A DNA stretch of 58,709 bases, counting the filler, from Jimgerdemannia flammicorona (taxonomy: Eukaryota): assembly GCA_003990765.1 (NCBI GenBank). It is 3 parts of 3 records of this genome, joined end to end, with 100 filler letters (N's around TTAATTAATTAA, not from the genome) between each part and the next. Parts side by side here need not be neighbours in the genome. Positions count along the whole stretch, not along the records: positions 1 to 19,506 come from RBNJ01001924.1; 2 more parts are not named here. One strand, written 5' to 3'. The notes under the pieces are model-generated. The model had not been told where the DNA came from. It did not search any database and saw only the letters and a list, made by a program, of their open reading frames with translations. Position numbers and translations under genes: made by a program. Below, piece by piece: positions 791-58,674 of this stretch; position 1 is the first letter of the stretch, and each line of letters starts with the position of its first letter.

Positions 791-3700
791 TATAAATAGT
801 AAATAAATCTAATTAATAATTCATAAACTTTCTGAAATAAGAAAAATCCTAAATATACATTAATCCAATCTTGAAATCAATAAGTATAGAGGACATACTC
901 TATATGAAATTGATCTTGACCTTAAGAAAATGGCCTTTCAGAATATCTAAAACTTCTAGAAAACCCTTCCAGAACTATGTAATGGTATCCTAACAAAGTA
1001 CTCTCTTATAGTCTGATACTATTAGTATAGAGATCTTAGTAAGTAGTATCTTGAGGTATTCTATAGCTATTGTGCAGGCAGGGGTCCATTCAGTCTTGAT
1101 ATTGATTCCTTTTCCTATCTGACTAGTAAGTGGAGTAGTGATTACAGAGTATCCTAGAAAATATTGAAGGAACTTAAGGGTGGTGAAGATGGAAATATCT
1201 TATAGAGCTGATATTTTTTAACAGTCTATATTGATACCATCAGCTGAGATGATGTATCTCAGATATTATACTTGCTTATCTTAGTATAAAACTGATATTC
1301 TCATAGTAAGGTCAGTATACTTTATAGGAGTATAATATAACTCAATTGTTTCACTATAGATCAGAATATCATCTATATATACTAGAATATATATATTAAG
1401 TAATAGTCTAAAGATGTTGTTCATGAGGTTCAGAAAGATTGCAGGAGTATTGTTTAGACCAAAAGATATAACTCAGAATGGTAATATCTAAATCATATCC
1501 TAAAGGCTGTTTTCTTCATATTTTTATTATTAATAAGAATCTGGTAATATCTATTTCATAGGTCTAGTAGAGAGAATATCTTAGTCTTGAAAATATAATA
1601 GAGTAGCTCATCAATCCTTAGCAGAGTATACTCATTCTTGATGGTGATTTTGTTGAGAGCTCAGTAGGTAATAAATATTTACAATAAGCTATTCTTCTTC
1701 TTATAAATAGAATAAGTGCTTCAAAGAGTGATCTGCTGGATATAATATATCCTTGAGCCAGTAGTTTGATCAATTCCTTCTTGAGGACTTTGAGTTTAGG
1801 CTAGACTTCTGTTATATTGAGATTCTACTCCTGGGATAAGATCAATCCTATGTTGGATTTAATGCTTGAGGAGAAGGTCTGTAGATTCTGGAAAATGTCT
1901 CAGAATTCCTCAAAGAATTCTTATGCTTCTGGTGAGACTAGACTAATTGGAGCTTATACTATCTCTTCTACTTTATAGCTATATTAGGTATTTATCTTCT
2001 TATAAGATAGTCTCTTTATTTTAGATAGTAGAGATGAGATCAAACTTTTAGTAATTGGTTCTATTTTGATAGAAAATTAGATTGATTCTTCTTCCTTCAT
2101 AATGTAGGTTAACTTCATTTGTTTTCTAGTTGATATCTAGATTGTATTTGTTAAAACAAGTCTTTTCTAAAATAATAGCATATCCTAGAAGATCTGCAAT
2201 ATTGATATCTAGCTTCTCTTAATATTTGCTGATGTTGAGTATTAGGTTTTCATAGCTTCAAGTTAATGATCAGATCTTGCTATTACCAAAAGTTACTTAT
2301 TTCTTCTTAGTTATTAGTTTGCTTTAGACTACAATTCTCTTGGCTGTCTTAGTTCTATGAAGTTTTCTATAGAATCACTATCTAATAAGACTACTATATC
2401 TTATTTATTGACTTGTTCTTCAAACTTAATATAACTATCCTATATACTTCTTAATAGTATTGAGCTCATTATCATTATCTCAATCAGTTTCATTATTCTC
2501 AAAGTCTGTCTTATATTATCCTTCACAAGTAGTATGGTCTGATTTGAGTTCCACTATTGTCTCCTTGACCTGACATTTTACTGTTTAAATCTTAAAAACT
2601 TTAGAGAGACAAGTATGATATTACTAATATATTCTATATAGTTTATATAAATAAAATAAGAACATTATCTATATTGTATATAAATATCTACAATTCTCTG
2701 ATACTAGATTTTAAGACTGATTTTCTTTACTTTATTGACTCTTTGCTTACTGAGAGTTCAGTCAGTAGAGCTAAATCCTTTCTTGTCTCAGTTAGTCTTA
2801 TCTAGTTCAGAGACTTCTTCAATAGTAAGATCTTCTTTAATCTTTTTAATAATGGCTTGAGCAATCTTTTAGACAATCTTTATATCAAAGAGTATATTAT
2901 TAAAGTTATATAGAATGACTTGGATTTCTTCTATAAAGTCTTAATCAATGACTTCTTCTTTTAGATCAATATTGAATTCTACTTTATTCAGCTAAGCAGA
3001 TAGCTTAGGGGCTTGCATACCAATACTAGTTTATATTGTTATATTAGGGCCTAGTAGGATAGTGAGCTCTTAGCTACTGTAGAGATTATAATCTATATTA
3101 ATTAATTATATCTTAATAGAGATAGTGGTCTTATAGAATATATTTTTTATCTTAATGATGTTTTCTGGTCTTTATTATCTAATTCTTGTTCAATTACAAT
3201 AATGCTGTATTTTCTCAGTTTGTTAGATAAGCCTTTGTTCTACTTTTCTGAACAATTATAGGATATATATTCTTTTTTCTTAAAGATAAAGTACAGGCCC
3301 TTATTTAGAAGCTGTCTTTATTAATTGTCACTATATACCTTAGTCCTTCTATACTCCTCTAGGCCTTGATTTCAGATGAGGTAGCTCTCTTGTCTTGTTG
3401 GTCCTTCCAGGTATAGGGCTTAGATAGCTAGAATTTCATAGACTTGGGTAAAATACTATGAGTAGTTACTAGTACTCTTAATAAATCTAATCAAATCAAA
3501 TTTGACCCAAATTCAATTTAATTTAATTGAATCAAAGATCCAATTTGATTCAATTCAAATTGAATCAAATGGTAATTTAATTTAAAATTTGATTTAAACC
3601 CTATTTTTAAAATATAATAACTCAATAAATATATATCCAAATTTAATAGTCTTTAGCTTATTAGATTTGTAAGATAAACCTAATAAGCTAAATATTATTA

Positions 3701-6432: not shown

Positions 6433-8444
6433 CTTCTACTCAATAAGATATGTTTCAGAATATGCAGAATATATAAATAAAAGATTAACTAAATATGACC
6501 AACTGGATGCTATCTAGATAATCAAAAAAGGTTGAAATTCTCTACTTATAAGTATAAAAATAGGTAAACAGAGTAGTGAAAAATGAAGATCCAGAACAAT
6601 GTTATTAAAGATAAATACTCATAATGGAATAAAACTAGTAATATTGATAAAAGATATATATACAAGATGTAAGATATAGTAGAAAGCTTTTAGCACTCTG
6701 AAAATCTTTCTATTATATCTATATTATTACTACTTACTGCTTACTATCATAGAATTACTACTTACTGACATATAGTCCCTATTAGCATAGAGTTATCTGT
6801 AAGTCTCATTCCTTATATATATAAGTTAAACCTAGCCTTTAGAGGAGCTTTAGTTAACAAATCTGTCATCATATACTTTTTGGAAGTATATTCTAAATAT
6901 ATAGTACTATTTTCTATATATTTTTATATAAAATGATACTATATATCAATGTGCTTTATTCTAGTATGATATATAGAGTTCTTTGCCATAGTAATCATAG
7001 ATTAATTATCTTGTTGAAGTAGCATAGAGTGCTATTGATTGTATCCTAATTTCTTTAGTAGTTTCCAAAGCCATATAGCTTTCTTTATTGCCATAGATAA
7101 TACTTAATACTCTGCTTATATAGATAACATTATCACCAAAAATTACTTATGTGTTTGCCATAAAATGACTCTGTTTTTACTGATTTTAAAGAGATATCCA
7201 GTTGTAGAGTACTGATTATTGAGATCTTTAACTCAGTATACATTACATATACTAGATAGCCTTATAGTACTCCCACTTGATCTATTATTATTACTACTTA
7301 AATGTAGCATATTATGCTATATCTTTGATATATCTAAAGATATACTGGATTACTATCCAATGTGAATTAATATAGCAGGATGAGTACTGTACTACTTTAT
7401 TAACTATATATAATATATCAGATCTTATTCTAAGCATAAGATACATGAGAGATCCCACAGCTTACCAATAAGGAATATTGTTATCTTTGGATATAGTATT
7501 AGACTTCTTTAGCCTCACAGATATCTTTATAGGTGTTCTGATAGGTTTGTATTCACTCATGCCAAATCATTTGAGTAGAGTCTGAATATATGTGGCTTGT
7601 AATAAGTATATAGTACACTATCATATATGATCAATATTCTAAGAAGATAGAATATGCTACCTATATTCATCATCTTGAATTTCTGATATAAAGTCACCTT
7701 TATGTTATTAATCTCATTTTTCATCAACCAGAATAATATTATTGACCCAAATTCCTAGGTATTGTAATGTGCCCTGTTCAATGCAGGCAAATTACAAGGT
7801 TGGGGGTTGATGTAGTTTGGCTTGAGCCCCCAGTTACTTTGTCAAAAATTCTATAATTCCTGAGGTCCTTGGTGGTGTTTAGTGGTATAATAGTCAAAGC
7901 TGGATATCTGTGAGCGATTTCCTTATTGGGATGGTTCTCTGGGTGTAGCGGCGATTTGTGTATGTGATGGATGATTTGGTATAGTGCGACGATCTCTGTG
8001 TAGTGCGGTGATCTCTGTATAGCATGGCGCTTTCCTTATGCATGGCAGTCTGACAATTTCAGCAGTTTTCTTCTTGGGTGACGACGATCTCCAAAAGTAT
8101 GCCATTTCTGGCAAATAACTCAATTTGGCCAGATAACTCGGTTTTGGTACGGATTCTCCTAAATCAGCGGGCTCACTGGGAATGGGTAAATAACTCAAAA
8201 ACGGCAGATAATGTGGATAATTAGGATAACTCAGAGGGCAGATAATTCAATAACTCGGATAACTCGGGAAGCTCGGATGGTGGATTCTTAGCAAGTTACA
8301 TCAAAGACTGGCTTTGTTTGCACAGGGTTACGTCGTAGACTGGCTCCACTGTGAAGTTGGGTCAGATAGACTGGCTTGTGGCAAGGTTCCTTATAGTGGG
8401 TCCTCTGGGAATACAGGTTCTTCTTGAAAATGGCAGCTTATTCC

Positions 8445-8947
8445 AGAGGAGGAGGAAGGCCCAGCGGGAGCCATGGGAGCGAACCCAGAGCCAGTGTCAA
8501 AGCGAACGGAAGATATGTGGAAAGGCGTGTATAAGGGGGATGAACAAAGAACGTAACTGAAATTGCATCAGCCATTTATTGCCACGTAAAAACATGGTCC
8601 TTATATACAAAATACGACATCCCAAAAGGGAGGACGCGCCACAACTCGGGGCAAACCGAATTAGGAACCACATGACCGCCGGAGATAGGTGGAGATAAGA
8701 GGGGAGCCAATCCCAGTTGCAGGATAAAAATCACAAACAAACACAAACAAAACAAATCCAAATCGAGATTAAAAAACATCTGCAGACCCCGGAGGGGTGA
8801 GCGTGAGCGAGGGGTGAGGCCGAAACAGAGCGAGCCGCAGCGAGCCCGAGCGAAGCGAGGGGCTGAAGGCAGTGGAGGGGAGCGGAGTAAGGCCGAGACC
8901 CCGGAGTGAGCGCGAGACCCCGGAGGGGGCAAGGATGTTTTTTAATC
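8445..8947 (-). repeat. PLE pseudo-LTR, 3' copy
   Basis: Near-identical to 11920-12421 and, inverted, to 13525-14027. Includes the first ~24 codons of ORF1. Confidence 0.95.
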
Positions 8948-11026
8948 CTCTCCAGCAGAGCCAGAGGCACCAGAAGGTGATGAAAACACAAAACGAGAAT
9001 GATGGATTAAAGAAGAAACAGAAGGAAGACGCGAATGAGCAATCAGAGGGCGTCGGGAAAGAGATGAAAGTCCATGGCGGGAAAGAGAAGAGCGCAGGAC
9101 GATATCAGGGCGTTGAGCAACCCAGCGAGCACAATCAAATAGTACGACGAGAATCGGGGGTGGGAAAGAAGAGGGGGTATAGAGAGGGTAAGGGGGGAGA
9201 GAGGGAAGGGAGGGGGGGTAAAGGGGAGAGAGAAGGGAAGATCGAACAACAGACCATTCAACAGAAGCAAGCAGATCGCGAACAATAGAAATTGGGTAGG
9301 CACAACGATGGACCACGAAGTTGCCAAGAACCCGAACAGCAGACACCCAGTCAGAACGACAGGAGCAGCATAGTGCAAGACGACAAGCCTCACCACGAAC
9401 ACATTCAAGAAGAGTGCGATGAGGATGGTTGGACAAGAAGTCAGGGAACTGTTGGGAACGTGGAAAATGAGAATAAACAACAGTTCGGAAAGGAGAAAGA
9501 GAAATGGAAAGGTCCAAAAAGGGAATACTGGTCGTACCACACACCCAAGTAATAGAATGATGGGGAGGATAGACACCACGAAACACACTAGGGATATCAA
9601 TACCAGCAACAGCAAGGACGATAAAGTCATCGATGTATCGGCGAAAGAAGATATCCCCAGCCCAGAACGCGATGGAAAGAGGTGAAGAAGGATCACGTAT
9701 CGCACGCAGTTCATGAGCCAAGCCAACAAGATTGGCAAGGGTGGGGGCACAATTCGTACCCATGGCAATACCAGAAGTCTGGTGAAAGGAGCCAAGGGCT
9801 GACTCAAAATAATTAGAGCCGCAGACGAGGAGCGTAAGCTCAACAATGGAAGCCAGTGAGACAGGGGAGTCCAAAGGAAATACAATGGAACCCAAGAAGC
9901 GAAGGCAATCATCGATCTCATCAAAACGAATAGCAGTGTAGAAGGAGGAGAAGTCACCAGAGGCCAAATGGGAAAAATGGTGAACAGGCACAATGGTGGA
10001 GCAGAGAAGGGCGAGCTCCAGAGTATCACGAAGAATGGTATACTCAGGCCCAAGACGGTGTTGTAAAAGAGCCATCCAAGAGAGAAAGAAGTGGGATAAC
10101 CACTTAGAAATCTCAGTAGTGGGGGAGTTATAAGCAGCCGTAATGGGATGCCAAGCCAAAGTAGGCTTGTGAACTTTAGAAAGGGCATAAAAAACCGGAA
10201 GACAAATGTCCGGAGAGGATAAAGAGTCCTGGAAGAAGTTAAAAATAGGGTTCGCAAACGGGGAATCCGAAAGCAACCTAGCATGAGCTAAGATAACCCG
10301 AAGAAGAGTGAGAACCTCATCCAATCCAAGAGCACTAGGCTCATAAGCCACGGCTCGAAGGAGGGCAGAAAGGCCATCAAGGTAGAGCAACTTAGGAATA
10401 AGTGCAAAACCCTGATTCTTATCAGTGACTGTGAGCAAATACATAGGCAATTGCTTGACCGATTTAAGTGCGGTACGCACGGCATGGTCCGAAACCAAGC
10501 AAGAGTGAGTGCATCCAGGAATGGACAACAAGCAAGCCATGTCGAGGAATACGCAGTGTGAAGAGACATTGGGAGGGGGGACCCAATCGCTAGGAACAAA
10601 ATAGCGAGAGGGCATCTCACCACGATCTTTGAAGAAGATGGCAAGGTCAAGAGCATGACGAAAACATGTGAGACGAGCCGGATCGGTGAAGGAGAATTGT
10701 GAGGGAGTCGCAGGAAAAACAAAGTGAGGACCCAAAGATAAGGCAAAGACTTGAAGGGGAGAAAGAGGGCAGTCAGCCAAAGAAAAAGGAGGATACAAAA
10801 GTGTTCCAAGAGAAGAATAAACCTGAAAGTTCGGGACAAGCAACTGGGAAAGGCGAAGGGGGGACAACATGAGGAACCACTCAGGGTACACCAGAAGCGA
10901 CAACGGGATCCGAGACAGGACGGGGACACTGGGGGAGAACCAGGCCGGGGGGAAGTTTAGGAGTGGGAGGTCTTCCCCTTCCCTCTGACTTTTTTTGAAG
11001 GTGGCGAACCCGACGAACAGGAGCAC
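8942..11026 (-). CDS. Penelope-like reverse transcriptase, 694-codon uninterrupted frame, no GIY-YIG domain
   Basis: Motifs ALSLGPHF, TDKNQG, PVFYALSKVHKP..WHPI, DFSSFYTAI, GIAMGTNCAPTLANL, FRRYIDD, IPFLDLSI, NHP...GEACRL..CS and RPLIAHSR, then a stop within ~30 aa. True start uncertain: 11026 is GTG and the first in-frame ATG is ~10870. Confidence 0.93.
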   Translation of the reverse strand: MLLFVGFATFKKSQREGEDLPLLNFPPAWFSPSVPVLSRIPLSLLVYPEWFLMLSPLRLSQLLVPNFQVYSSLGTLLYPPFSLADCPLSPLQVFALSLGPHFVFPATPSQFSFTDPARLTCFRHALDLAIFFKDRGEMPSRYFVPSDWVPPPNVSSHCVFLDMACLLSIPGCTHSCLVSDHAVRTALKSVKQLPMYLLTVTDKNQGFALIPKLLYLDGLSALLRAVAYEPSALGLDEVLTLLRVILAHARLLSDSPFANPIFNFFQDSLSSPDICLPVFYALSKVHKPTLAWHPITAAYNSPTTEISKWLSHFFLSWMALLQHRLGPEYTILRDTLELALLCSTIVPVHHFSHLASGDFSSFYTAIRFDEIDDCLRFLGSIVFPLDSPVSLASIVELTLLVCGSNYFESALGSFHQTSGIAMGTNCAPTLANLVGLAHELRAIRDPSSPLSIAFWAGDIFFRRYIDDFIVLAVAGIDIPSVFRGVYPPHHSITWVCGTTSIPFLDLSISLSPFRTVVYSHFPRSQQFPDFLSNHPHRTLLECVRGEACRLALCCSCRSDWVSAVRVLGNFVVHRCAYPISIVRDLLASVEWSVVRSSLLSPLYPPSLPSLPPYPLYTPSSFPPPILVVLFDCARWVAQRPDIVLRSSLSRHGLSSLSRRPLIAHSRLPSVSSLIHHSRFVFSSPSGASGSAGED

Positions 11027-11046
11027 ACCCCATCAGAGTGCCAGAC

Positions 11047-11991
11047 CTAGCGGCCACAGGCCTTCGTGCAGCCCTTGCATTCAGGGGCACAGGTCGAGGA
11101 GGCAGAGGAGGAACCGGCGGAGGAGGTGGAAGGCAAGCGAGCAGCTGAAGGGGCAGCAGCGCGAGGAATACCACCATGGGGGCAGACGAAGCCTGATTGG
11201 GCTTGGCAGGGGTCTTGGTGGGGGTCTTGGAGGGGGCCTTGGCGGTGGCGGCAGCGAAGGAGCGAACCTCAGCATGAGCAGCAGCCCGAGCTTCAGCGCG
11301 AATGGCCTTGGAGACCGAAACCTCAGATGGTGGCGCGAGCAGAAGCGGTGGCGCGAGATGACTCTTGCTCGTAAAGACAAGCAACGAAGGAGGTGCCGGC
11401 GAGGAGGAAGCGACGTACAGCATCGATGTCGGCAGCGACAGAAGGAACTTAATGGATGGCAAAGCCACAAAAGGGGGCAGCATCCGAGAGGTGAGAGGAG
11501 GCGAAGGCCACGAAAGTGGCACAGGCACGATGGAAGGAGGTGGAGGCGGCGGCGGCGGAAGCAGCGGCGGCATCAGCAGTGGCGAGTTTGGCGGCAGCAG
11601 TGGCGGCGCGAACCTCTTCAGAGAGGGCTTGGCGGCGGGCCTCAGGGAGGACAGAATAGCGGATGGTGGACGGAGCGACGACGTCGATGTCATGGCGGAG
11701 ATGAGCCTCCTTGGCAGAGAGGGCAAGAACCGACCGGAACTGAGAAAGGAGCGGATGACCAGAAGGATGAAGGTCCAGGGGGAGGGAAAGAATGGCAGAT
11801 GAGACATAGGTCTTGAACGAGACAGTGGCGGGGGTGAAGGCAGGGGGGGGAGGAGGAGGAAGAACCTCATCCATGAGCTCGTCGACGAGGACGGAGGCCC
11901 CGAGGGCAGACGGTACAGCAGAGGAGGAGGAAGGCCCAGTGGGAGCCATGGGAGCGAACCCAGAGCCAGTGTCAAAGTGAACGGAAGACAT
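11047..11991 (-). pseudogene. ORF1 of the Penelope-like element, Ala-rich and helical/coiled-coil-like, disrupted
   Basis: ATG at 11991 lies inside the pLTR (MSSVHFDTGSGFAPMAP..). Ala-rich helix RRQALSEEVRAATAAAKLATADAAAA; in-frame TAA at 11449-11451, with the frame continuing VPSVAADIDAVRRFLL. The middle segment reads better in another frame (KAIRAEARAAAHAEVR). Ends TAG at 11047. Confidence 0.6.
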
Positions 11992-12421
11992 GTAGAAAGG
12001 CGTGTATAAGGGGAACGAACAAAGAACGTAACCGAAATTGCATCAGCCATTTATTGCCACGTAAAAACGCGGTCCTTATATATAAAATACGACGTCCCAA
12101 AGGGAGGACGAGCCACAACTCGGGGCGAACCGAATTAGAAACCACATGACCATCGGAGATAGGCAGAGATAAGAGGGGAGCCAATCCCAGTTGCAGGATA
12201 ATTATCACAAACAAATACAAACAAAACAAATCCAAATCGAGATTAAAAAACATCTGCAGACCCCGGAGGGGTGAGCGTGAGCGAGGGGTGAGGCCGAAAT
12301 GGAGCGAGCTGCAGCGAGCCCGAGCGAAGCGAGGGGCCGAAGGCAGCGGAGGGGAGCGGAGTAAGGCCGAGACCCCAGAGCGAGCGCGAGACCCCGGAGG
12401 GGGCAAGGATGTTTTTTAATC
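11920..12421 (-). repeat. PLE pseudo-LTR, 5' copy
   Basis: Direct repeat of 8445-8947; continues into ORF1. Confidence 0.95.
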
Positions 12422-12743
12422 TCGATTTGGATTTGTTTTGTTTGTGTTTGTTTGTGATTTTTATCCTGCAACTGGGATTGGCTCCCCTCTTATCTCCGCC
12501 TATCTCCAATGGTCATGTGGTTCCTAATTCGGTTTGCCCCGAGTTGTGGCACGTCCTCCCTTTTGGGACGTCATATTTTGTATATAAGGACCACATTTTT
12601 ATGTGGCAATAAATGGCTGATGCAATTTCGGTTACGTTCTTTGTTCGTCCCCCTTATACACGCCTTTCCACATGTCTTCTGTTCGCTTTGACACTGGCTC
12701 TGGGTTCGCTCCCATAGCTCCCGCTGGGCCTTCCTCCTCCTCT
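12408..12743 (+). repeat. Inverted partial pseudo-LTR
   Basis: Reverse complement of 11920-12254. Begins exactly at the 14-bp IR and ends at CCTTCCTCCTCCTCT. Confidence 0.95.
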
Positions 12744-13530
12744 TGTTGGCTTGGCTCATGAACTGCGTGCGATACATGATCCTTCTTCACCTCTTTCCAT
12801 CATGTTCTGGGCTGGGGATATCTTCTTTCGCCGATACATCAATGACTTTATCGTCCTTGCTGTTGCTGGTATTGATATCCCTAGTGTGTTTCGTAGTGTC
12901 TATCCTCCCCATCATTCTATTACTTGAGTGTGTGGTACGACCAGTATTCTCTTTTTGGACCTTTCCATTTCTCTTTCTCCTTTCCGAACTGTTGTTTATT
13001 CTCGTTTTCCACGTTCCCAACAGTTCCCTGACTTCTTGTCCAACCATCCTCGTCGCACTCTTCTTGAATATGTTCATGGTGAGGCTCATTGTCTTGCACT
13101 ATGCTGCTCCCATCGTTCTGACTGGGTGTCTGCTGTTCGGGTTCTTGGCAACTTTGTGGTCCATCGTCGTGCCTACCCAATTTCTATTGTTCGCGATCTG
13201 CTTGCTTCTGTTGAATGGTCTGTTGTTCGATCTTCCCTTCTCTCTCCCCTTTACCCCCCCTCCCTTCCCTCTCTCCCCCCTTACCCTCTCCGTACCCCCT
13301 CTTCTTTCCCACCCCCGATTCTCGTCGTACCATTTGATTGTGCTCGCTGGGTTGCTCAATGCCCTGATACCGTCCTGCGCTCTTCTCTTTCCCGCCATGG
13401 ACTTTCATCTCTTTCCCGACGCCCTCTGATTGCTTATTCGCATCTTCCTTCTGTTTCTTCTTTAATCCATCGCTCTCGTTTTGCGTTTTCATCACCTTCT
13501 GGTGCCTCCGGCTCTGCTGGAGAGGATTAA
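12741..13530 (+). pseudogene. 5'-truncated second copy of the PLE RT
   Basis: Reverse complement of ~8942-9732. YIDD is mutated to YIND and there is a TGG>TGA stop at 12925-12927. Confidence 0.95.
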
Positions 13531-14027
13531 AAAACATCCTTGCCCCCTCCGGGGTCTCACGCTCGCTCCGGGGTCTCGGCCTTACTCCGCTCCCCTCCGC
13601 TGCCTTCGGCCCCTCACTTCGCTCAGGCTTGCTGCGGCTCGCTCCGTTTCGGCCTCACCCCTCGCTCACGCTCACCCCTCCAGGGTCTGCAGATGTTTTT
13701 TAATCTCAATTTGGATTTGTTTTGTTTGTGTTTGTTTGTGATTTTTATCCTGCAACTGGGATTGGCTCCCCTCTTATCTCCGCCTATCTCCGGCAGTCAT
13801 GTGGTTCCTAATTCGGTTCGCCCCGAGTTGTGGCACGTCCTCCCTTTTGGGACGTCGTATTTTGTATATAAGGACCATGTTTTTACGTGGCAATAAACGG
13901 CTGATGCAATTTCGGTTACGTTCTTTGTTCATCCCCCTTATACACGCCTTTCCACATGTCTTCCGTTCGCTTTGACACTGGCTCTGGGTTCGCTCCCATG
14001 GCTCCCGCTGGGCCTTCCTCCTCCTCT
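13525..14027 (+). repeat. PLE pseudo-LTR, inverted 3' copy
   Basis: Reverse complement of 8445-8947. Confidence 0.95.
13860..13900 (+). promoter_or_regulatory. Candidate TATA box and AATAAA in the pLTR (present in all four copies)
   Basis: TATATAAG followed ~26 bp later by AATAAA, ~90 bp upstream of the ORF1 ATG, and preceded by the hairpin ACGTCC..GGACGT. Function is inferred. Confidence 0.45.
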
Positions 14028-17000
14028 GTGGTTTCTTCAGGCTTATCTGGCAAGTGAACCAAAAATGGACTCATTCTTTGTATCAGAAAGTGGACTGAAG
14101 TAGGAAAAGGAATGCTTTGCTCACAATCTCCTAGTAGTGGCTGTAGAGTTCCTCTCAAAGTGTGGTAGGCAGACTTGTCTTTTGCTTTTGGATTCAATTT
14201 TGGACTGAGGTTTATTCACTCTTGTCTCTGGGGTATTTTATACTGCTATCTGGATAATTATATATTTACCATCTCTGGTAATATTTGGGTATATCCACAG
14301 GACATGAGTGTGTCCACAGGACATAAGTGTGTCTGCCAGATACAGATATGTCCTCAGGATATAGATAAATAACCCCGATTTGGTATTCTGGCTAATTATA
14401 AGTATGGCAGTCATGAGTAACTATGCTATGCTGGGAATTCACATCATCTGACTATGTTATACTATTTGCTCACTATAGTATACTGTTCCTGAAGATATAT
14501 ATTAGATATATACATATGAATCAGCCTTATAATACTTAAATCTGTTATCTAAGAAATATTTGTTAATTTTTGATTCTACAGTCTTATGTACTACTTATTT
14601 GATACTATAGAGATATTTATGTATCTTATATATAAGCTTGTTTCTTTTATTGAATAATTCATATTCTTGTAATTGATATATATATAGCTCTATATCTACA
14701 TTGCCTTTCAAAATGGCTGTCTTAACATATATTTGGTAAATTTCATAATTATATTTAACTTTGATTGCAAGAAGTATTCAAAGTAAAGTAAGCTTAAATA
14801 CTAGAGAGAAGGTCTCATCATAGTCTATGCCATATTCTTGTAAATATCTCTTTTCTACAAATTAGGCTTTGTAATACTTTATATTACTATTACTATTATA
14901 TTTAACTTTATATATCCAGTGAGATCCTATTGCCTGTCAATTTGCCAGAAGAGAGACTAAATCTCATGTGTCATTCTCAATAAGTAAATTATATTCCTTA
15001 TCTATGGCCTTTTTTCACTCCTTTTTATTATCTAAATATATGACTTCATTATAGTTTGCTAGCTTATTAGTTATTGTTATATAAGTATACTTACAGATAT
15101 AGTTTATATGTATAATTTTTATAATAAAATATCTTAGGTTGGTCCCAATAATCTTCTAAATTCACTTTGACTTCATTTTAGGGTCTAGATTTACACTTTC
15201 TTTTACCCTTCAGAGAGATATCCTCATTATTATTCTTGTTTGTAATTTTCATAATTCTAGGCTCTAATAGCCTCATTAGTATATATATGGATTATGCTGG
15301 TGCTGATACTGGCTAGATACCATTCTGCTTATCTTTGAAGTTGACATAGTTGTTACTAGCTATACTATTGGGTTAGTTGAGATAGGAATCTTCATACAAA
15401 TTTCCTACTTAGTCTTCTTAAATTGAATATTATGAGAGATGACTATATAATATTTCTGCAGATTCTATAATCTATATACTGCTCCATCATATCTAAGGAG
15501 TATATGCTTATCTGCTTTAGGCTCAAATTTGTCTCTATTGATACCTTTATCCAAAATGTAAACCTTACTTCTGAATATCTATAGGTACAAAATATCTGAC
15601 TTAGCTCTACTTTATAATTCCTCAGAAGTAAGACTACTATTATTTCTAGATTACTGATTGTTTCTGTGATTATTTCTAGATCATTAATTGTTTTTGAATT
15701 ATCAATTATTCCTGGATTAATAATTGCTAGATCTGCTGAATCTACTGAAATCTTTGCTTATAGTTTGAGAAATATAATAATTTTGGATATATGTTATTAT
15801 ATTTACTACTTTGGTCCTAAAGGAGTACAATAGGTCAGCCATATGCATCATCATTCAAGCTATCTCTACTACTGTTTGATTAAAGCATTCTATCACACTG
15901 TTCTATTCAGATATATAGAGAGCTATTATAGAGTGCTGGATACTATACTTCTTCAAGAAATATCTAAAGACTTTGTTGAAATATTCCTTACTATTATCTG
16001 AGTATAAGATCTGTATCTTATATTACATTTTGTTCTCTACAGTTATATAGAATTCTCAGAAATTTTTGAATAACTCATTTTTTATTATAAGAAAGAATAT
16101 ATAGACTTTGCAAGTATAATTATCAATAAAGGTGATAAAATACTTCTTTCTAGAGTATATTACCATTTACATGAAGCCACAGATATCTGTATATATTATT
16201 TTGAGAATACTGACCACTTGCTTTGTCTATTTCTGAAATGGTTACTAAGAAGCCTCATTTGCTATATATCTATTGTAAAAGAAATTCAGAGATATATAGT
16301 CTTATAATTCTCTTACTGAACTACTTCTTATCATCTATTCTAGACTCATCTTGCTGATATGCCCTAAGAATTTATACTATATATACCAGAGATCCTCTCC
16401 AGTTATAGCAGAATATGTAAATGATGTACTACTTACTTAATATATTATTAATTGTATATAGGTTTCCCTTTTTTGATTTATATATTAACTTCTTATTATT
16501 CTTTAAATTAATTACTATTATACTATTCTGTTATATATTTACTCCTTTATCTCCTTGAGTGATCATCTGGTCTATTGAAAAGTAGTTCTTCCCTATATCT
16601 GAAGTATATAGTATATTAATGAAGGTATCTGAGAATTTATTAACTTTTCTATATAAATATATATCAATATTGCCCTTAACTTAAGTATAGATGATACTAT
16701 TATCATCTAGTTTGATAAGTGCTCAAACTTCTTATATGTAGAGAACTACTTCCAGTATACTATTATATACTATATTGCACCAGAATCTATAAGCCAGACT
16801 TCTTTACTATATATGTGAGTACTCAGTATATAGCTTATATTAGTACTGATACTTATGTTAATATTTTTTATCAATGTAAAAGTATTTCTCAAATTCACTC
16901 CCAAATCTCTCTCTGTATAAAGATAGATTACTGCTGTGAAAAATATATCTTAGTTGCTTTTATTATTATTGGTATCTATCATATTTGTCTACTCTTAACT

Positions 17001-17617
17001 GCTCTTTTCCTTCTTCTTTCAGTTACAGTCTTACTTGTGATGTCTATACTTATTATAGTAGAAGTATTTACTATCAAATTTAGCTCATTGACCATCATAG
17101 TGATCATCATATTGTTTTTACTCTCATTCTTTATTCAGCTTGCCTTTGTCTTGTCCACATACTCTGTAGAAGGGTTTCTCATTATTTTCATTGTCATTAT
17201 TGTCACTCAGCCTTATTTTCTCATTTAAAAGGCTCATGATGATATGCTTATAGTCTGATAGTTTGTCAGATTCTCTCATAGTGGTAACAACCATATGGTA
17301 TACCTCAGAAAGGCTATATGTGAGGGCTAGGACCTTGTCTTTATCCTTAATAGTATCTGCTAGTGTAGAAAAAGAATTCACTTGATTAATTAACTTATTG
17401 ACATAGTCAGCATAGTTCTGAATACTCTTCTTGAACTTTATTCAAAGATTACACAGTTGTGCTTTCAGATGAAATCTGTTTGATATAGATACTTATTAAT
17501 AGTGATTGCATAAGATCTCTCAGGCTTTATTCACTATCATAATATTGATAGTATATTTCATTTACATATTCAAATGGATAAATATAATCTCTCTTAGTGC
17601 TCTACAATTTTTCATAA

Positions 17618-18977
17618 TATAATAGTACCTGGCTCAATAGAGGCAAATTATAAGGTTGGGGGTTGATGTAGTTTGGCTTGAGCCCCCAGTTACTTTATTA
17701 AAAGCAACAAAATGTTCTTAGTGTTTAGTGGTATAATAGTCAAAGCTGGATATCTGTGAGCAGTTTCCTTATTTGGATGATTCTCTGAGTATAGCAGTGA
17801 TTTGTATGTCTTTTCCTTCTTGAGTCAACTGGAAATTGGTAGAATGTCATATATAGTGCAATGATCTCCTTATGTATAATGATCTAGTAATTTAGTGGTA
17901 TTTCTTCTTGAGTTGCAGGTGATCTCTGTATGATGATCTTCATGTAGCGCAACAATCTCCAAAAGTATGTAATTTCTAGCAGATAGCTTGATTTGGGTAC
18001 AGGTTTACTGGGAATAGAGGATGGTGCAGATTCTTCTAACTGGGAATAATGCTGGTAGCAGATAATTTAATAACTTGGACTCACTGGGAACAAATGAATA
18101 ACCTGGGTGATGTGGGTAACTCAGATAACTCAGATAACTCAGATGTCATAGATTCTTCCTGAATCAGTAGGCTTCTGGAAATAATAACTCAGGTGGTACA
18201 GATTCTTCCTGAATTGGCAGCTTCAACTGAGAATGTGGATAACTTGAAAATAGTGGATGATGTGAATTCTCCTGAATCAGTGGATTTCTTGAAAACAGTA
18301 GCTTCAACTGGGAATTAACTTGGATTCTTGACAAGTTACATCAAAGGCTGGCTTTGTTTGCACAGAGTTGCATTATAGACTGGCTCTACTGCGAAGTTGT
18401 GTCAGAAAGACTGGCTTGTGGCAAGAAAGGTAGGTTCTCTGAGAATGTGGTGAATAACTTGAAAATGGCAGCTTATTCCTTAAGTAGTAGATTACTTAAA
18501 TGGTAGTGAAGTTCTCCTTGAACTTGGTGGCAAACCTCAGGCTTATCTAGCAAGCAAACCAAAAACAGACTCATTCTTTGTATCAGAAAGTAGACTGGAG
18601 TGGAGAAATAAGCTCACAATCTCCTAGCAGTGGCTGTAGAGTTCCTCTCAAAGTGTGGTAGGCAGACTTGTCTTTTGCTTCAATTTTCAACCAAGGTTTA
18701 TTCACTCTTATCTTTGGGGTATTTTATACAAGTTGGTTGCTATCTGGTTGCTATGTGGCTAATAATAGATTTGCTACTTATGGCAAGTTGTGCAGGTCCA
18801 GCACAAGTGTGCAGGTCTGGTACAAGTGTACAGGTCCTGCACAGATATACCTTTTCTGGTAGTCTGGCTATTTATACACTTTTCTGCAGCAATGGTTGCT
18901 GTGTCTGGTTACTATGCTGTATGTTCACATTATCTGGCTAAGATATAATTTGGGTGGTATATTTTCAGTATGTCACA
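17618..18977 (-). mobile_element. Ty3/Gypsy-type solo LTR (copy A2) inserted in Copia gag
   Basis: Homologous to 7763-8444 plus 14028-14477. Termini TATAA(TGTAA)...TCACA; 4-bp TSD ATAA/ATAG; internal GATAACTCA microrepeats. Confidence 0.8.
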
Positions 18978-19506: not shown

Positions 19507-19606
19507 NNNNNNNNNNNNNNNNNNNNNNNNNNNNNNNNNNNNNNNNNNNNTTAATTAATTAANNNNNNNNNNNNNNNNNNNNNNNNNNNNNNNNNNNNNN
19601 NNNNNN
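19507..19606. other. Artificial contig linker (N44-TTAATTAATTAA-N44)
   Basis: Exactly 100 bp with a six-frame stop core; identical to 39109-39208. Confidence 0.97.
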
Positions 19607-32100: not shown

Positions 32101-35100
32101 GAATCTGAAGATTAGTATGTATAAGACATTAGTCTATACTCCATATCATATTGAAGATTATATCTTTGATGCCATCATTGATACTAGTACTGGAGAATAT
32201 CTCATAAGTAAGAGGACAATTGACTGCCTAGACTGGGACATTGAAGAGTCTATCAAGATGGTCTATATTACAGTAGATGGTATATGAGCTATCTCCCTTA
32301 GTAAGATCTGAGAAGTTCCTATCAAGATTGGAGGAGCTACCATATTAGTAGACATAATTGTTATAAGCATCACCAACTATAACATTCTTATTAGCAACTA
32401 ATAGCTTCACAAGGCCAAGGCTATCATTGATCTCAATGTCCAGAAGATGCAGATCAATTATAGAGGAAGAAAGGTATGAGTCTTTATTAATATCTATAAA
32501 GGAGTTCTATCAGATATAGAGAAAGGAGATGAAGAGAACATAGAAGTCTTCATACACTCAGTAATCAAGAACAAGAACAAGATACTCAAGCTTACAGATG
32601 AGTAGTGGTATAACAAGATCATTAATAGCTATACTTCTCAAGAAAGATATCCCCATAGTACTAGAATATACTACTCTAAACACCTGAATGACTACTGATC
32701 CTATATCAGTGAAGTCAGGAAAATCCACCAACAAAAGCATAAGTAAGAAGCTGCTGAAGCAAAAAGAGAAACTAAAGAAGATGACCAGCCCCCAGAGCTT
32801 CAAGCTAACAGTAATGATGAGGAGGAACAAGAACCAGACATCACTCTCAAAGTTAAGAAGTTTCACTCCAAAGTCAAGATCCCAGAATATAAGACTGAAG
32901 GAGCTATAGAAATAGACCTTGCTAGCATTCAAGATACTACTCTTAAACCACAGACCACTACTCTACTTGGTATTGGAATTGGAGTCAAGTTATCAGAAAA
33001 CTATACTGGAATTATCAAGACTAGGAGCAGTCTGGCCAAAAGCAAAATCTCAGTTAAAGGAGGAGTAATAGACCCTAATTACATTGGCAAGATCTTTCTC
33101 ATAGTCAGGAATCACAACTCCACCACTCTATTCAAAGTTAAGAAGTATGACAGAATTGACCAGATGCTGATCCATGAAGTCAAAAAGTCTAAGATCACTA
33201 AAGCCATTAAACTCATCAAGACTAAGAGAGGAGAACAAGACTTTGGATCTACTGGAAGAGGAGCATATACTGCCACTAAGATTACTGAACTCAGCACAAG
33301 AAAGATAAGAACCAGAATAAGTACATATATACCATCAGAGAAAACTTTTCCCTAGAGAAACAACTTCTTAAGATCCTACACCAGAATGAAGAAGTACTTG
33401 CTATAGACTTCAGAGATATCCACAATCAAGAACTCAAGTACTACCAAAAAGTTGACATCAGTGATACCAAGCCCATCTATCAGAAAGCCAGATCTATACC
33501 ACCTGCCTACAGAGAATGGCTGCAAGCAAAACTCAAGGAAATGGAAGAAGCTGGAATTATCAAGCAAGCTATCAGCCCCTGGACTTCACTCATTATTCTT
33601 ACCTTAAAGAAAGAAAGCAAGCCTGGAGAGTTTGCCCTAAGACTCTGTATTGATTATAGGAAGCTCAATATAATCACTAAGAAGGATAGACAGTCTTTGT
33701 CAAATATTCAAGAAATCCTTACCACTCTTGGAAGCAAAGCCAAATACTACACTACCTTGAATCTGTTCTTAGGCTTCCATCAGATTAGTCTCACTCAAGA
33801 TACCAGTGAGAAATCAGTCTTCATTACACCTAATATCACTTATGTCTATCTGTGAATGTTATTTGGAATGTGCAATACCCTAGCAAGTTTTCAGCAAATG
33901 ATGAACAGAGTCTTCAGCAATGAGATTGGAAAATAACTCTTCATCTATGTCAATGATGTGATCATCTTTAGATACTGCATAAGAATATGTCAACCATATA
34001 TAGCTAGCTCTCAAGAAGCTCAAGGAGCATGGCCTCTACATCAAGCCCAAGAAGTATAAGTTTGCAGTCTGAGAAATCACCTACCTAGGACACATCATCA
34101 ACCAGACTGAAATTCACATAGATTCTATAAATATTGAGGCTATTACAGCCTACTCAAGACCCAGGACAACTACAGAAGTCCATATCTTTCTTGGACTGGC
34201 CTCTTATTATAGAAGATTTATCAAATAATACTCTAACATTGCAGCACCTATCTATGAGCTACTGAAGAAGAAGACTAAATTCAAATAGACTAAGAAATGT
34301 CAAGAAACCTTCAATGAACTCAAGACCAGATTGACCCAAGCACCCATTCTCAGAAGACTAGATTGGAATCTAGAGTTTATTCTACAAACAGATGTAAGTA
34401 CTATAGAACTTAGAGCAGTCCTAGCTCAGAAGAAAGATGGACATGAATATGTCATCTCTTATATAAGCCAAGATACCCATGAAATAGAACAGAACTATGA
34501 GTCATATAAGCTTAAATGCTTAGCAGTAGTTTGGGCAGTAGATAAGTTCTACTACTACCTAGCTGGGAAATACTTCACTATTCAAACAGACTATTCTACT
34601 CTTACCTAGCTATTCCACACTCTGAACCCTAAAGGAATATATGCCAGATAGTCTACAGACTATAAGAGTATGACTGTACTATCAAACACTACTCAGAAAA
34701 AACCAATGCTAATGCTGATATACTCTCAAGGATACTCCAAAACACCCTCATTAAGATTATTTAACATGAATAAGGAGTTATACTATGGATTAATCAGCTA
34801 CTTTGAGTAGCAGAAAATGCTCAACCATCTCAAACTCTAGACTATTACTATCATTAACTGAACTTAGAAACAATTTGAACTAGACAATATCATACTCAGA
34901 AAAGAAGGAAAGCTCATAATACCTGAACATAAGAAGTATCAAGTAATTAAGGAAGTATATGAATAAGGATACCTAGGAGGAACCAACACATATAATAAGG
35001 TAAGAAGAACTATATGATGGTCTAAGATAGATGAAGACCTGTACCAATTTATCAAAAGATGTGACAAGTGCTAAAAATAGAAACAAGATCAGTAAGAGCA

Positions 35101-39108: not shown

Positions 39109-39208
39109 NNNNNNNNNNNNNNNNNNNNNNNNNNNNNNNNNNNNNNNNNNNNTTAATTAATTAANNNNNNNNNNNNNNNNNNNNNNNNNNNNNNNNNNNN
39201 NNNNNNNN
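39109..39208. other. Artificial contig linker (N44-TTAATTAATTAA-N44)
   Basis: Same 100-bp structure as 19507-19606. Confidence 0.97.
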
Positions 39209-41805: not shown

Positions 41806-42218
41806 TCACAGTCAAGATACAAAGAATCTACCCTGATGTAGTTATGCCACAATACAAATTGGAGAGTACAGTAGGAATGGACCCCTCTACCACAACACAC
41901 ACAATACTCGAACTGCAGACCACCACCATTCTAGGAACAGGAATTGAAGTAACCATCCCACCAAACTATGTCGGAATCCTCAAGACAAGGAGCAGCTTGG
42001 TAAAGAGCAAAATATCAATAGAAGGAGTTATTAATTCAGACTATATAGGAGAAATTCTCCTCCTCATCAGGAACTACAACCCAACCATTCCATTTGAAGT
42101 AAGGAAGAAGGATCAGCTGGCACAAATGCTCATCCTACCTATCCTTAATCCAAGAATCAAGGAGATCACAAACATTAGACAAACTTAGCAAGGAAGGGCT
42201 GGATTTGGCTCTACAGGA
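41806..42218 (+). pseudogene. dUTPase domain in Gypsy C pol
   Basis: KTRSSLVK, GVINSDYIGEI, DQLAQMLI, then *QGRAGFGSTG (42201-42218). Confidence 0.9.
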
Positions 42219-53405: not shown

Positions 53406-54331
53406 ATGGCCTCCCACGACCCCATCGTTCCTCACTCCCCTGGCATCAGTGCCTACATGTCCGTTCATGCCGCGACGAGTGAGTAATCTTGTGCCTATCC
53501 AGGGGTTTTTTTCGCTCGGTCGTGCCAAAACCGCTCTGGACATCGTCTTTCCATGGTTTCTGTCTCCTTCTAGACCTGGCATATGTCAAGTACTTTGCCA
53601 AGGCGACCGACGCTGTCTCTGCTACCTTCAAGAGCATAGACTCGACGGGGTTTGTGGTCTCGTACAAGAAAGCCAACGGCGTCGAGAAGGATGCGCGCAT
53701 CGAGTTCCAGACGCCGTTGACAAAGCGCGAGGAGATTAGGCCCGTGCTTGAAGCCATGGCCAAGGAAGCTGAAGACGCGCTGGGTCTGGTATGATATCTA
53801 ACCACTGTGTTCGCAAGCTTTTCGTCTGTGCTGGACCACGACGATCATTATAGTTGACTATAGCTCAATTCACAAAACCTCCAGCCCTCCAGCCTCTCCG
53901 GCCCACCGCCCATCGCGGCGATCGCCAAGGCCATGTACGCCAACGCAATGCATTCCCCCCCCTCCGGCCTCTGGGACGAGGAGAACTTGGACGTCTTCCA
54001 GCTCGTCTCCTTCCGTAAGGCTTTCCCTATAGTAGCCATTTGCGGCGCCACCCTATATCTCCAGTTCGCCACAACCCCGCCAGTGTGGGCCGCACAGCTT
54101 CGTGATATTTTCCCCACCAACGCGCTCCGCTACTCCTCGTACTTCATCTTAATAGCGCACTCGCTCGAGAGCACAGCCGCGCTGGCGCTATGTCTGAAAC
54201 GCGGGGTGTACTCATGGAGGAACACGTTTCTGTGGACAGTGCAGGGTCTTGTGACTGGGTTCCCTAGCACCATGGCGATTATTGATCACGGGAAGGTGGT
54301 GAAGGAGGCGAGGGCAAAGAAGCAGCAGTAA
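53406..54331 (+). CDS. DUF2470-like N-terminal domain plus TMEM254/DUF4499-like C-terminal membrane protein, 3 exons
   Basis: Exons 53406-53478, 53574-53788 and 53885-54331 with GT-AG introns splice in frame: MASHDPI..AYMSVHAATNLAYVKYF..ATFKSIDSTGF..IEFQTPL..IRPVLEAMAKEA..LIAHSLES..W.VQGLVTGFPS. Confidence 0.85.

Positions 54332-54720: not shown

Positions 54721-58674
<3,954 letters not shown>

What the first reader, a model, noticed from the sequence alone, without database searches (positions are those of the whole stretch)
8445..14027. Young Penelope-like retroelement without endonuclease, inserted at an internal non-telomeric site with two 3' ends facing outward
Seen: the RT carries all the PLE motifs but stops ~30 aa after the RPLIAHSR motif, with no GIY-YIG at either end. 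The layout is host <-[tail-pLTR-RT-ORF1-pLTR] then [part pLTR-tail]->[truncated RT-pLTR-tail]-> host, inside a solo LTR inside a Copia, with no telomeric repeats at any junction. Established: endonuclease-minus PLEs (Athena, Coprina) are related to telomerase RT and normally attach to chromosome ends. Inference: each end of a double-strand break primed its own cDNA from an element RNA 3' end and the two cDNAs were joined head-to-head. That would be RT-mediated break patching by a possibly undescribed PLE lineage.
Basis: partly seen in the sequence, partly recalled or inferred. Interest (0 to 1): 0.88.

Follow-up and report, generated by a model that had tools for sequence, protein, structure and literature searches.

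The report
Nuclease-less Penelope-like retroelement, head-to-head insertion
A 5.6-kb mobile element of the Penelope-like class, which has no DNA-cutting enzyme of its own, sits inside an old Copia repeat of a soil fungus as two copies joined head-to-head, which suggests that both ends of a chromosome break were extended by the element's reverse transcriptase.

Summary
Window 8444-14028 is a GC-rich island in CpG-depleted repeat DNA of Jimgerdemannia flammicorona (Endogonales). It is one Penelope-like element (PLE) locus. On the minus strand lies a full 3475-bp unit preceded by a 504-bp partial upstream unit (pLTR). On the plus strand lies an inverted 336-bp pLTR piece plus a 1288-bp 5'-truncated copy. 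Both outer ends are element 3' ends that stop at the same nucleotide. There is no target-site duplication and there are no telomeric repeats. No GIY-YIG or other nuclease was found in any frame, and the nearest relatives also lack one. However, the layout itself is the published standard PLE insertion layout, and an endonuclease-bearing (EN+) PLE protein extends both target strands in vitro. What is unusual is that an endonuclease-less (EN-) fungal PLE shows this layout at a non-telomeric junction. The head-to-head joint lies on a 14-nt self-complementary sequence of the pLTR. The copies differ only by transitions, mostly at CpG, about 1.8% per copy, so the locus is young only relative to its neighbours. 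Break patching without an endonuclease is plausible but unproven, because there is one locus and no genome.

The parts
8444..8947 (-). Copy A, last 504 nt of the unit (3' pLTR / 3' UTR). Its 3' terminus ...CCTCTG abuts the host at 8443/8444.
8942..11032 (-). Copy A reverse transcriptase frame, 696 codons stop-to-stop. The DKN motif and YIDD are intact. The stop TAA (8942-8944) lies inside the first 6 nt of the pLTR. No endonuclease domain follows.
11033..12042 (-). Upstream coding region of copy A. The best-supported frame is 11452-12042 (197 codons, ATGs at 11991 and 11949, i.e. inside the upstream pLTR). It is then broken by stops or frame changes before the RT frame takes over near 10930. 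No known domain and no relatives.
11919..12421 (-). Partial upstream unit of copy A (5' pLTR, last 504 nt of a unit), joined in perfect tandem register to the unit start at 11919/11918.
12408..12421 (.). Head-to-head joint. It is a 14-nt overlap GATGTTTTTTAATC, which equals pLTR positions 168-181 and is the reverse complement of pLTR positions 1-14. Both sequences are present in every pLTR copy.
12408..12743 (+). Piece B, the last 336 nt of a unit in inverted orientation. It is joined to piece C with a 3-nt (TCT) overlap.
12741..14028 (+). Piece C, a 5'-truncated copy (last 1288 nt: RT remnant 12754-13527 with a W->stop and YIDD->YIND, then the pLTR 13525-14028). Its 3' terminus ...CCTCTG faces the host on the right.
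14029..14033 (.). TGGTT between the element end and the point where insertion-free LTR copies resume. It is either filler or the remnant of a target segment that varies between LTR copies.
7644..8443 (.). Left host flank, an LTR-like repeat (83-100% matches to 17634-18478), CpG-depleted.
14034..14243 (.). Right host flank, the continuation of the same LTR-like repeat (85% match to 18537-18729).
14598..17441 (-). Degraded Copia interior next to the target: RVT_2 at 14598-14777 and copia-type gag at 17127-17441. The other LTR copy is at 17634-18729.

Best explanation
This is one insertion of an endonuclease-less Penelope-like retroelement family of Jimgerdemannia flammicorona, in the canonical PLE layout.

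Inferred mechanism:
1. The Copia LTR was broken between ...TTATTC and T(T)CTTCAGG.
2. Both 3'-OH ends were used as primers by the element's RT. On each side the RT started at the same fixed point of the element RNA (...CCTCTG), without homology to the target.
3. The left cDNA copied a whole 3475-nt unit and 504 nt of a second unit, using either a tandem read-through template or a jump to a second 3' end.
4. The right cDNA copied 1288 nt, switched at a 3-nt overlap to a unit 3' end, and copied at least 336 nt more.
5. The two cDNA 3' ends then paired through a 14-nt sequence of the pLTR that is the reverse complement of the pLTR's first 14 nt. They were filled in and ligated, which restored the chromosome.
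6. The locus has since decayed by C-to-T transitions, mostly at CpG.

Shown: the anatomy, the common 3' termini, the overlaps, the absence of a TSD, of telomeric repeats and of a recognisable nuclease, and the equal age of the pieces.

Inferred: the order of events, the use of both ends as primers, and the origin of the break (spontaneous or made in trans).
For: - Anatomy and identities.
- Three termini end at the same nucleotide, and there is no homology between these termini and the target.
- The joint lies exactly on a 14-nt inverted repeat that every pLTR copy carries. A 3-nt overlap lies at the B/C switch.
- The host flanks are adjacent parts of one LTR. Soil-metagenome contigs of insertion-free LTR copies join 8385-8443 to 14029-14034; five forms of such joints are listed tables 5 and 5c. 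One form ends ...ATTATTC and runs straight into 14034. There is no TSD.
- The pieces are of equal age. Polarised singletons per pLTR copy are 14, 8, 8 and 6 in 504, 504, 504 and 336 nt. A versus C shows 47 differences in 1288 nt, all transitions, with no third-position excess: 4 of 29 in the coding part.
- No nuclease was found.
- The nearest relatives end where this RT ends. The query's 8-row group in the IQ-TREE subset has no EN, and the long C-tails of P0020, P0130 and P0017 are low-complexity. The EN+ rows sit in a separate clade (96*, 100*).
- 0 of 23 metagenome loci of relatives carry the EN.
- The family's RT is under selection. 18 of 27 listed differences between a 93%-identical metagenome contig and copy A fall on third codon positions, p = 4e-4.
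- Published: a PLE protein extends both target strands and starts at a site not homologous to the target (PMC11167929, passages).
Against: - There is one locus only.
- No genome is held, so an EN+ helper, other copies with an EN, or a subtelomeric position cannot be excluded.
- The published view is that the EN's cleavage properties create the tandem/inverted layout (PMC8557442, passage). That view would favour a nuclease acting here.
- The upstream 1 kb of coding sequence has no recognisable domain, and its AlphaFold model was unusable (mean pLDDT 43). An unrecognised nuclease is therefore not ruled out.
- The N-terminal (Naiad/Chlamys-type) EN was tested only with Pfam's GIY-YIG model.
- Whether 45-55 nt of target were lost or 4-5 nt were added is unresolved, because LTR copies differ at that spot.
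- The hammerhead ribozyme that other PLEs carry was not found.
Confidence: 0.55

Rival explanations
1. Ordinary endonuclease-dependent PLE integration, with the nuclease supplied in trans by an EN+ PLE or another element of the same genome. The EN-less element is then a parasite of that machinery, and the layout follows from staggered cleavage of both strands.
For: The layout is the one described for EN+ PLEs, and it is attributed to the EN (PMC8557442 and PMC3846280, passages). Both-strand cleavage and extension have been shown in vitro (PMC11167929). pLTR sequences alone suffice for trans-mobilisation in rotifers (PMC3846280).
Against: There is no TSD. In the passages read, EN+ PLEs are reported from animals, conifers, the green lineage and protists, while fungi are said to hold only EN- PLEs. 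No EN was found in this window (one search found no other PLE piece). None was found in the query's nearest clade or in 23 metagenome loci. Purifying selection on this family's own RT suggests that it uses its own enzyme.
Confidence: 0.15
2. Two separate insertions. A 5'-truncated copy (B+C) inserted first, and a full copy (A) later landed exactly at its 5' boundary in the opposite orientation, its 5' end attaching to B by the 14-nt homology.
For: PLEs often insert into other PLE copies (PMC3846280, PMC11167929, passages). A microhomology-mediated 5' junction would look the same.
Against: The second break would have to fall precisely at the host/B boundary, since the outer host flanks are contiguous LTR sequence. 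B and C are not older than A (6 and 8 versus 8 and 14 singletons).
Confidence: 0.1
3. Snap-back self-priming. Only the left end primed. The cDNA 3' end folded back on the 14-nt complement 154 nt upstream and copied itself, as proposed for the palindromes at Penelope inverted junctions.
For: The 14-nt inverted repeat lies exactly at the joint. The idea is published for rotifer Penelope (PMC3846280, passage).
Against: Self-copying from that point should run from the pLTR into the unit's 5' start and finally into the left host flank. Instead B is followed by unit position 2188 onward. Piece C stops at the very nucleotide where RT starts on the other side, and is then followed by the correct right-hand LTR sequence.
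Confidence: 0.1
4. The inverted arrangement is a later rearrangement or an assembly artefact of a simple tandem insertion.
For: Such structures are known to trouble short-read assemblies (PMC8557442, passage). No read-level check of the joint was possible, because laid contigs only.
Against: The arms differ at 47 of 1288 positions and the four pLTR copies each carry private changes, so they are distinct sequences and not one copy placed twice. The joints have the overlaps typical of PLE insertions.
Confidence: 0.05

Closest known systems
Canonical EN+ Penelope/Poseidon-type insertions (Drosophila, fish, rotifer Pen2a_Av; PAc of Anolis)
   Same: - A full unit between direct pLTRs, plus an adjacent inverted 5'-truncated copy, head-to-head.
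- A short overlap at the inverted joint (15 bp in Pen2a_Av, 14 nt here).
- The ORF start lies inside the upstream pLTR.
- The RT starts at a fixed site not homologous to the target.
(PMC3846280, PMC8557442, PMC11167929, passages.)
   Different: No GIY-YIG EN in any frame. No TSD. No hammerhead ribozyme hit. No optional 30-40-nt tail was seen. The host is a fungus. The RT lies outside the EN+ clade of the relatives sampled.
EN- PLEs Athena (bdelloid rotifers) and Coprina (fungi and others, e.g. Coprina-1_Alen of Ascochyta lentis)
   Same: The RT ORF has no EN. There is an upstream ORF in another frame. Direct terminal repeats are present. The host is fungal. Among distant metagenome relatives, 2 of 23 loci carry CCCTAA-type repeats next to the element.
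   Different: Those elements are described at chromosome ends behind reverse-complement telomeric repeats with an adjacent hammerhead motif (PMC8557442 and PMC13159263, passages). Fungal and protist EN- PLEs are said not to share the direct-plus-inverted pLTR organisation (PMC3846280, Conclusions passage). Here there are no telomeric repeats at any junction, no HHR, and the full Penelope-type layout. Clade membership was not testable, because no named reference sequences were available. The one named fungal relative (Puccinia sorghi, P0014) sits in another clade.
EN- PLEs away from telomeres: PLE-X of Chara braunii (genome-wide) and Selaginella (28S rDNA), MjPLE01 of kuruma shrimp
   Same: PLEs that lack the EN yet insert inside chromosomes; 'alternative means of securing 3'-OH groups' is invoked for them (PMC8557442, passages).
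   Different: Those derive from EN+ clades (Chlamys, Neptune), carry a CxC motif and canonical HHRs, and some target rDNA. The present RT groups with EN-less relatives only, and no HHR was found. Their insertion anatomy was not in the passages I read.
Endonuclease-independent L1 insertion at DNA lesions
   Same: Retroelement cDNA used at a pre-existing break; no TSD. (PMC1920257: search listing and start of abstract only. The features of such insertions are recalled, not read.)
   Different: As I recall them, those insertions are usually 3'-truncated and joined by microhomology to the target. Here both arms start at the element's exact 3' terminus with no target homology, and two cDNAs are joined to each other.

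Membership tests
Penelope-like elements (PLE), as a class | RT of the PLE type, with the DKN motif upstream of the RT core | tested here: met
   TDKNQGF in the query and TDKNLGF in relatives. 2556 phmmer relatives at E<=0.001. 16 of the 152 proteins held carry a C-terminal GIY-YIG with two Cys between GIY and YIG, the PLE hallmark named in PMC8557442. All 15 invariant columns of a 23-RT alignment are kept in copy A.
Penelope-like elements (PLE), as a class | pLTR formed by a partial tandem copy upstream of the full unit, with the ORF start inside it | tested here: met
   504-bp direct repeat in exact tandem register. ATGs at 11991 and 11949 lie upstream of the tandem junction 11919/11918.
Penelope-like elements (PLE), as a class | Inverted 5'-truncated copy adjacent to the upstream pLTR | tested here: met
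   12408-14028 is inverted, with a 14-nt overlap at the joint.
Penelope-like elements (PLE), as a class | Hammerhead ribozyme motif in the pLTR (absent only from Naiads and most Chlamys, per PMC8557442) | tested here: not met
   Rfam cmscan of 7500-15000 at E<=1 gave 0 hits. The pLTR alone at E<=10 gave 2 unrelated weak hits and no hammerhead.
Penelope-like elements (PLE), as a class | [quoted passage not shown] | tested here: not met
   Both host junctions and the tandem junction end at the same nucleotide. With one locus, an optional feature cannot be excluded for the family.
EN+ PLEs (Penelope/Poseidon, Neptune, Nematis, Hydra; Naiad/Chlamys) | GIY-YIG endonuclease, C-terminal or N-terminal to the RT | tested here: not met
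   Pfam at E<=0.1 and E<=1 on all 20 sense-strand frames of 40 aa or more gave none. My own PLE-EN HMM on six frames gave a best E of 0.18. The N-terminal type was tested with Pfam only.
EN- PLEs Athena / Coprina | No endonuclease domain | tested here: met
   The relatives P0001 and P0005 end at the same point.
EN- PLEs Athena / Coprina | Attachment to telomeres through reverse-complement telomeric repeats at the 3' end | tested here: not met
   No runs of TTAGGG, TTTAGGG or TTAGG type on either strand in the window. The 3' ends abut LTR sequence directly. This holds for this copy only, and the host's telomere repeat is not known to me.
EN- PLEs Athena / Coprina | RT falls inside the named Athena or Coprina clade | not testable with these tools
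   No named reference sequences could be brought in. The query forms a trio with two unnamed metagenome proteins (50% and 28-33% identity; 97-99* support). Named relatives are only Racocetra fulgida, Stenamoeba stenopodia and Puccinia sorghi.
Endonuclease-independent (break-primed) retrotransposition | No TSD; target unchanged or deleted; no nuclease available | tested here: inconclusive
   There is no TSD. The target change is unresolved: either 4-5 nt added or about 45-55 nt lost. The absence of a helper nuclease in the genome could not be tested.

The most novel reading that the evidence does not exclude
The RT of an endonuclease-less, telomerase-related retroelement can by itself heal both ends of an internal chromosome break and rejoin them through a built-in 14-nt self-complementary sequence. 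This would mean that the enigmatic tandem/inverted architecture of all PLEs is a property of the RT and its RNA, not of the GIY-YIG endonuclease. It would also mean that EN- PLEs colonise chromosome interiors by break patching.
Probability: 0.3. Interest if true: 0.78.

Novelty: new variant of a known kind. Interest (0 to 1): 0.55.

Why it matters
PLE specialists attribute the complex tandem/inverted insertions to the element's GIY-YIG endonuclease. They describe fungal EN- PLEs as telomere-bound elements without that organisation (passages in PMC8557442 and PMC3846280). A fungal family that lacks the nuclease yet shows the full layout at a non-telomeric junction is a natural test case. If a genome census confirms it, the layout must come from the RT/RNA complex. 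The question of what makes PLE insertions look as they do then becomes testable with one protein and free DNA ends. It would also document PLEs in Endogonales. My six full-text searches found no description of them there.

Tried and rejected
- Whole-genome census: impossible, because no genome is held.
- Earlier notes of this scan: none for this genome or sequence. One unrelated rotifer note came up.
- Sequencing runs: one soil-metagenome study was listed, and no RNA holder was listed. Only contigs could be laid, so read-level confirmation of the joints, copy number and expression could not be obtained.
- The 'opposite strands' joint 8857/13653 is ambiguous. The reference itself holds inverted copies, so a colinear 38-nt indel would be reported the same way. 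I do not count it as a second inverted junction.
- The joint 8443->14033 (depth 2, side 21) is too weak to call an empty allele.
- An exact 20-nt pattern from the pLTR in JGI metagenome contigs gave 0 matches.
- A protein-based scan gave 23 loci of only 24-28% identity (one short 55% segment), useful only for the EN and telomere-repeat tallies.
- Upstream ORF: no similarity to the N-terminal extensions of 46 relatives. No PDB sequence hit below E 0.08. No homologue among 8000 scored candidates of 108-345 aa. No Atlas hit. The AlphaFold model was unusable (mean pLDDT 43), so no fold search was run.
- RT against PDB: the single sequence gave nothing. The 23-sequence profile hit only generic RTs (group II intron, retron, DRT) at E 3e-7 or weaker and no telomerase at E<=0.01. 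The telomerase kinship is therefore taken from the literature and was not shown here.
- ESM Atlas for the RT gave unnamed eukaryotic (mostly rotifer-labelled) clusters, with no clade name.
- Gladyshev & Arkhipova 2007 and Arkhipova et al. 2017 are not held. What I say of them comes from passages that cite them.
- The DNA fold of the joint region is not independent evidence, because the stretch contains the start of the inverted copy.

Full report
**What is there.** The window's 1-kb GC profile shows an island of 0.48-0.63 GC at 8001-14000 between flanks of 0.25-0.32. The repeat finder and a self-BLAST resolve it into four related pieces.
- On the minus strand lies a unit of 3475 bp (11918->8444). 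Its last 504 bp (8444-8947) are repeated immediately upstream (11919-12421, 94.2% identical), in exact head-to-tail register.
- On the plus strand, 12408-12743 equals the last 336 bp of the unit (95.5%).
- Also on the plus strand, 12741-14028 equals the last 1288 bp (96.4%, no gaps).

The insertion therefore reads: host, then copy A pointing left, then pieces B and C pointing right, then host. Both outer ends are element 3' ends. These two ends and the internal tandem junction all stop at ...CCTCCTCCTCTG.

**Identity.**
- The 696-codon frame 8942-11032 scores only weakly against Pfam RVT_1 (E 0.014).
- It finds 2556 proteins at E<=0.001 in the 1.84-billion-protein library; the best are 50% and 33% identical.
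- It carries the DKN motif (TDKNQGF) and YIDD, and it keeps all 15 invariant columns of a 23-sequence RT alignment.
- Of the 152 relatives held, 16 end in a GIY-YIG domain with two cysteines between GIY and YIG. This is the PLE signature described in Craig et al. 2021 (PMC8557442, passages).
- The element is therefore a PLE.
- The host is Jimgerdemannia flammicorona (Endogonales, Mucoromycota). A 281-residue exon of the PMR1-type ATPase at 57306-58148 is 100% identical to two NCBI proteins of that species.

**No endonuclease.**
- The RT frame ends 28 residues after RPLIAHSR, and its stop codon lies inside the first six bases of the pLTR.
- An HMM built from the 16 PLE ENs recovers all 16 at E<=6e-21. 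It finds nothing in the six frames of 8000-14500; the best hit is E 0.18, 5 bits, outside the element.
- The two nearest relatives end at the same point.
- In a FastTree of 141 RT cores (11 of 152 dropped for not covering the core), the query joins P0001 (100*) and P0005 (97*). All 15 EN+ rows lie in a separate 22-row clade (96*).
- I built an IQ-TREE subset of 43 of the 141 rows. I chose the query's group, the EN+ clade and 14 others, and left out five long-branch rows. The result is the same: the trio has 99*, the EN+ clade has 100*, and the query sits in an 8-row EN-less group with SH-aLRT 94.
- The long C-terminal tails of three members of that group are low-complexity and are not EN.
- Of 23 metagenome loci encoding distant relatives, none has the EN, and 2 carry CCCTAA-type repeats.
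- Limits: the N-terminal EN type was tested with Pfam only, and the upstream 1 kb has no recognisable domain at all.

**The upstream ORF.** The element's sense strand is 67% pyrimidine. Stops are therefore rare in all three frames, and long open frames are not evidence of genes.
- A codon-usage score trained on the RT favours frame 11452-12042 for the first 600 nt. It then switches between frames until the RT frame takes over near 10930.
- That frame has ATGs at 11991 and 11949, inside the upstream pLTR. This is how PLE ORFs are described to start (PMC3846280).
- It is interrupted by stops at 11451 and further down.
- It has no detectable relatives or fold.

**The target.**
- The flanks are two adjacent parts of an LTR-like repeat with a second copy at 17634-18729.
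- Copia gag (17127-17441) and RVT_2 (14598-14777) remnants lie between the two copies on the minus strand. The target is probably that Copia's other LTR.
- There is no TSD.
- The second copy has 55-58 extra bases at the insertion point.
- A soil metagenome holds this organism or a close relative: 378 contigs were laid, 74 of them at least 99% alike. It contains insertion-free LTR copies. One reads ...ATTATTC directly followed by 14034.
- So either 4-5 bases (TGGTT) were added or about 45-55 bases were lost. The LTR family varies at this spot, and I cannot decide between the two.
- No telomere-type repeat occurs in the window.
- Whether the region is subtelomeric cannot be told without the genome.

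**The internal joints.**
- The head-to-head joint is a 14-nt overlap, GATGTTTTTTAATC (12408-12421). This is pLTR positions 168-181, and it is the reverse complement of pLTR positions 1-14. Both sequences are present in every copy.
- The two antisense cDNAs would thus end in mutually complementary 14-mers.
- The joint between B and C has a 3-nt overlap.
- Arkhipova et al. 2013 describe the same thing for a rotifer Penelope: the inverted pLTR overlaps the direct one by 15 bp, and there are palindromes at such joints.

**Age and decay.**
- A and C differ at 47 of 1288 positions. All 47 are transitions, with 4 of 29 coding differences on third positions and 22 amino-acid changes. These include a stop and YIDD->YIND in C.
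- Polarising the four pLTR copies gives 36 singletons, of which 32 are G>A or C>T, and 20 of those 32 are at CpG. They are spread 14, 8, 8 and 6 over the copies.
- The pieces are thus of one age, about 1.8% diverged each, and they decay by cytosine deamination.
- CpG observed/expected is 0.66-0.83 in the element, 0.00-0.13 in the surrounding repeats and 1.1 in the genes. The insertion is therefore young relative to its neighbours, but it is not pristine.
- Five sites split the pLTR copies two against two. Four of them group the two inner pieces against the two outer ones. This hints that the inner pieces came from another template or from the source's upstream pLTR, but parallel CpG hits could produce it.
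- By contrast, a 629-nt metagenome contig 93% identical to copy A differs mostly at third positions (18 of 27 listed, p = 4e-4). Lineages of the family therefore diverged under selection for a working RT.

**Mechanism.** The most economical reading is one event in which both DNA ends of a break primed cDNA synthesis at the element's fixed start site, and the two cDNAs were then joined through the 14-nt complementarity.
- The identical termini on both sides argue against snap-back synthesis from one end. So does the fact that C is followed by the correct right-hand LTR rather than by an inverted copy of the left flank.
- The contiguous host flanks and the equal age of the pieces argue against two insertions.
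- Frangieh et al. 2024 (PMC11167929, abstract and passages) showed that a purified EN+ PLE protein cleaves and extends both target strands, and that it starts reverse transcription at a site not homologous to the target. That is the behaviour needed here.
- What remains open is who made the ends. Nothing in the data distinguishes a spontaneous break from a nuclease supplied in trans. The absence of a TSD and the absence of EN+ PLEs from fungi in the passages read lean towards the former.

**Comparison with what is known.**
- The layout is the textbook PLE layout (PMC8557442 Fig. 2 legend and text), so it is not by itself evidence of break repair.
- EN- PLEs inside chromosomes are also in print: PLE-X and MjPLE01.
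- The combination is what departs from the literature I could read. [quoted passage not shown] - The Coprina element of Ascochyta lentis is strictly terminal, lies between telomeric repeats, and has direct repeats only (PMC13159263, passages).
- Six full-text searches found no account of PLEs in Endogonales, nor of an EN- PLE with this layout. Subscription papers and the two key EN- PLE papers were not available.

**Verdict.**
- I file this as a new variant of a known kind: an EN-less PLE family of an early-diverging fungus with the canonical Penelope-type insertion anatomy at a non-telomeric junction.
- It rests on a single locus.

Noticed in passing
window 1-45000 versus 53800-58709: Repeats are almost free of CpG (observed/expected 0.00-0.13) while the genes have 1.1. 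All 47 differences between the two PLE arms are transitions. This points to strong methylation-driven deamination, or a RIP-like process, acting on repeats in this Endogonales genome.
   Followed up: partly
window 8444-12421: The element's sense strand is 67% pyrimidine, so its cDNA strand is purine-rich. Long stop-free stretches therefore occur in all three sense frames and mimic ORFs. The bias recalls the strand asymmetry of telomere-attached retroelements.
   Followed up: partly
window 32747-33852 and 41607-43247: Two LTR-retroelement remnants encode a dUTPase next to their RT (Pfam dUTPase E 2e-23 and 9e-16). The first is more AT-rich than the second.
   Followed up: no
window 53864-54328 and 54721-58707: A TMEM254-like frame lies directly upstream of the PMR1-type Ca/Mn ATPase. 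The two NCBI J. flammicorona proteins that match carry both Pfam families, so this is either a merged gene model or a real fusion.
   Followed up: no
L010/L011 (one 11.8-kb metagenome contig): An EN-less PLE relative is present as at least three perfect (100%) head-to-tail units of 3196 bp. Most other relatives' contigs are 3.0-3.9 kb, about one unit. This suggests tandem arrays or circular forms collapsed by assembly.
   Followed up: partly
L009:18-35 and L012:93-110: Three CCCTAA-type repeat units lie upstream of the RT on its sense strand in 2 of 23 metagenome loci, as expected for telomere-attached EN- PLEs.
   Followed up: no
window 19507-19606 and 39109-39208: Two pairs of 44-N runs, which are masked or unresolved stretches.
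   Followed up: no
window 1284-1472 (-): A short RVT_1 fragment (E 8e-9) of another decayed retroelement lies left of the target LTR.
   Followed up: no
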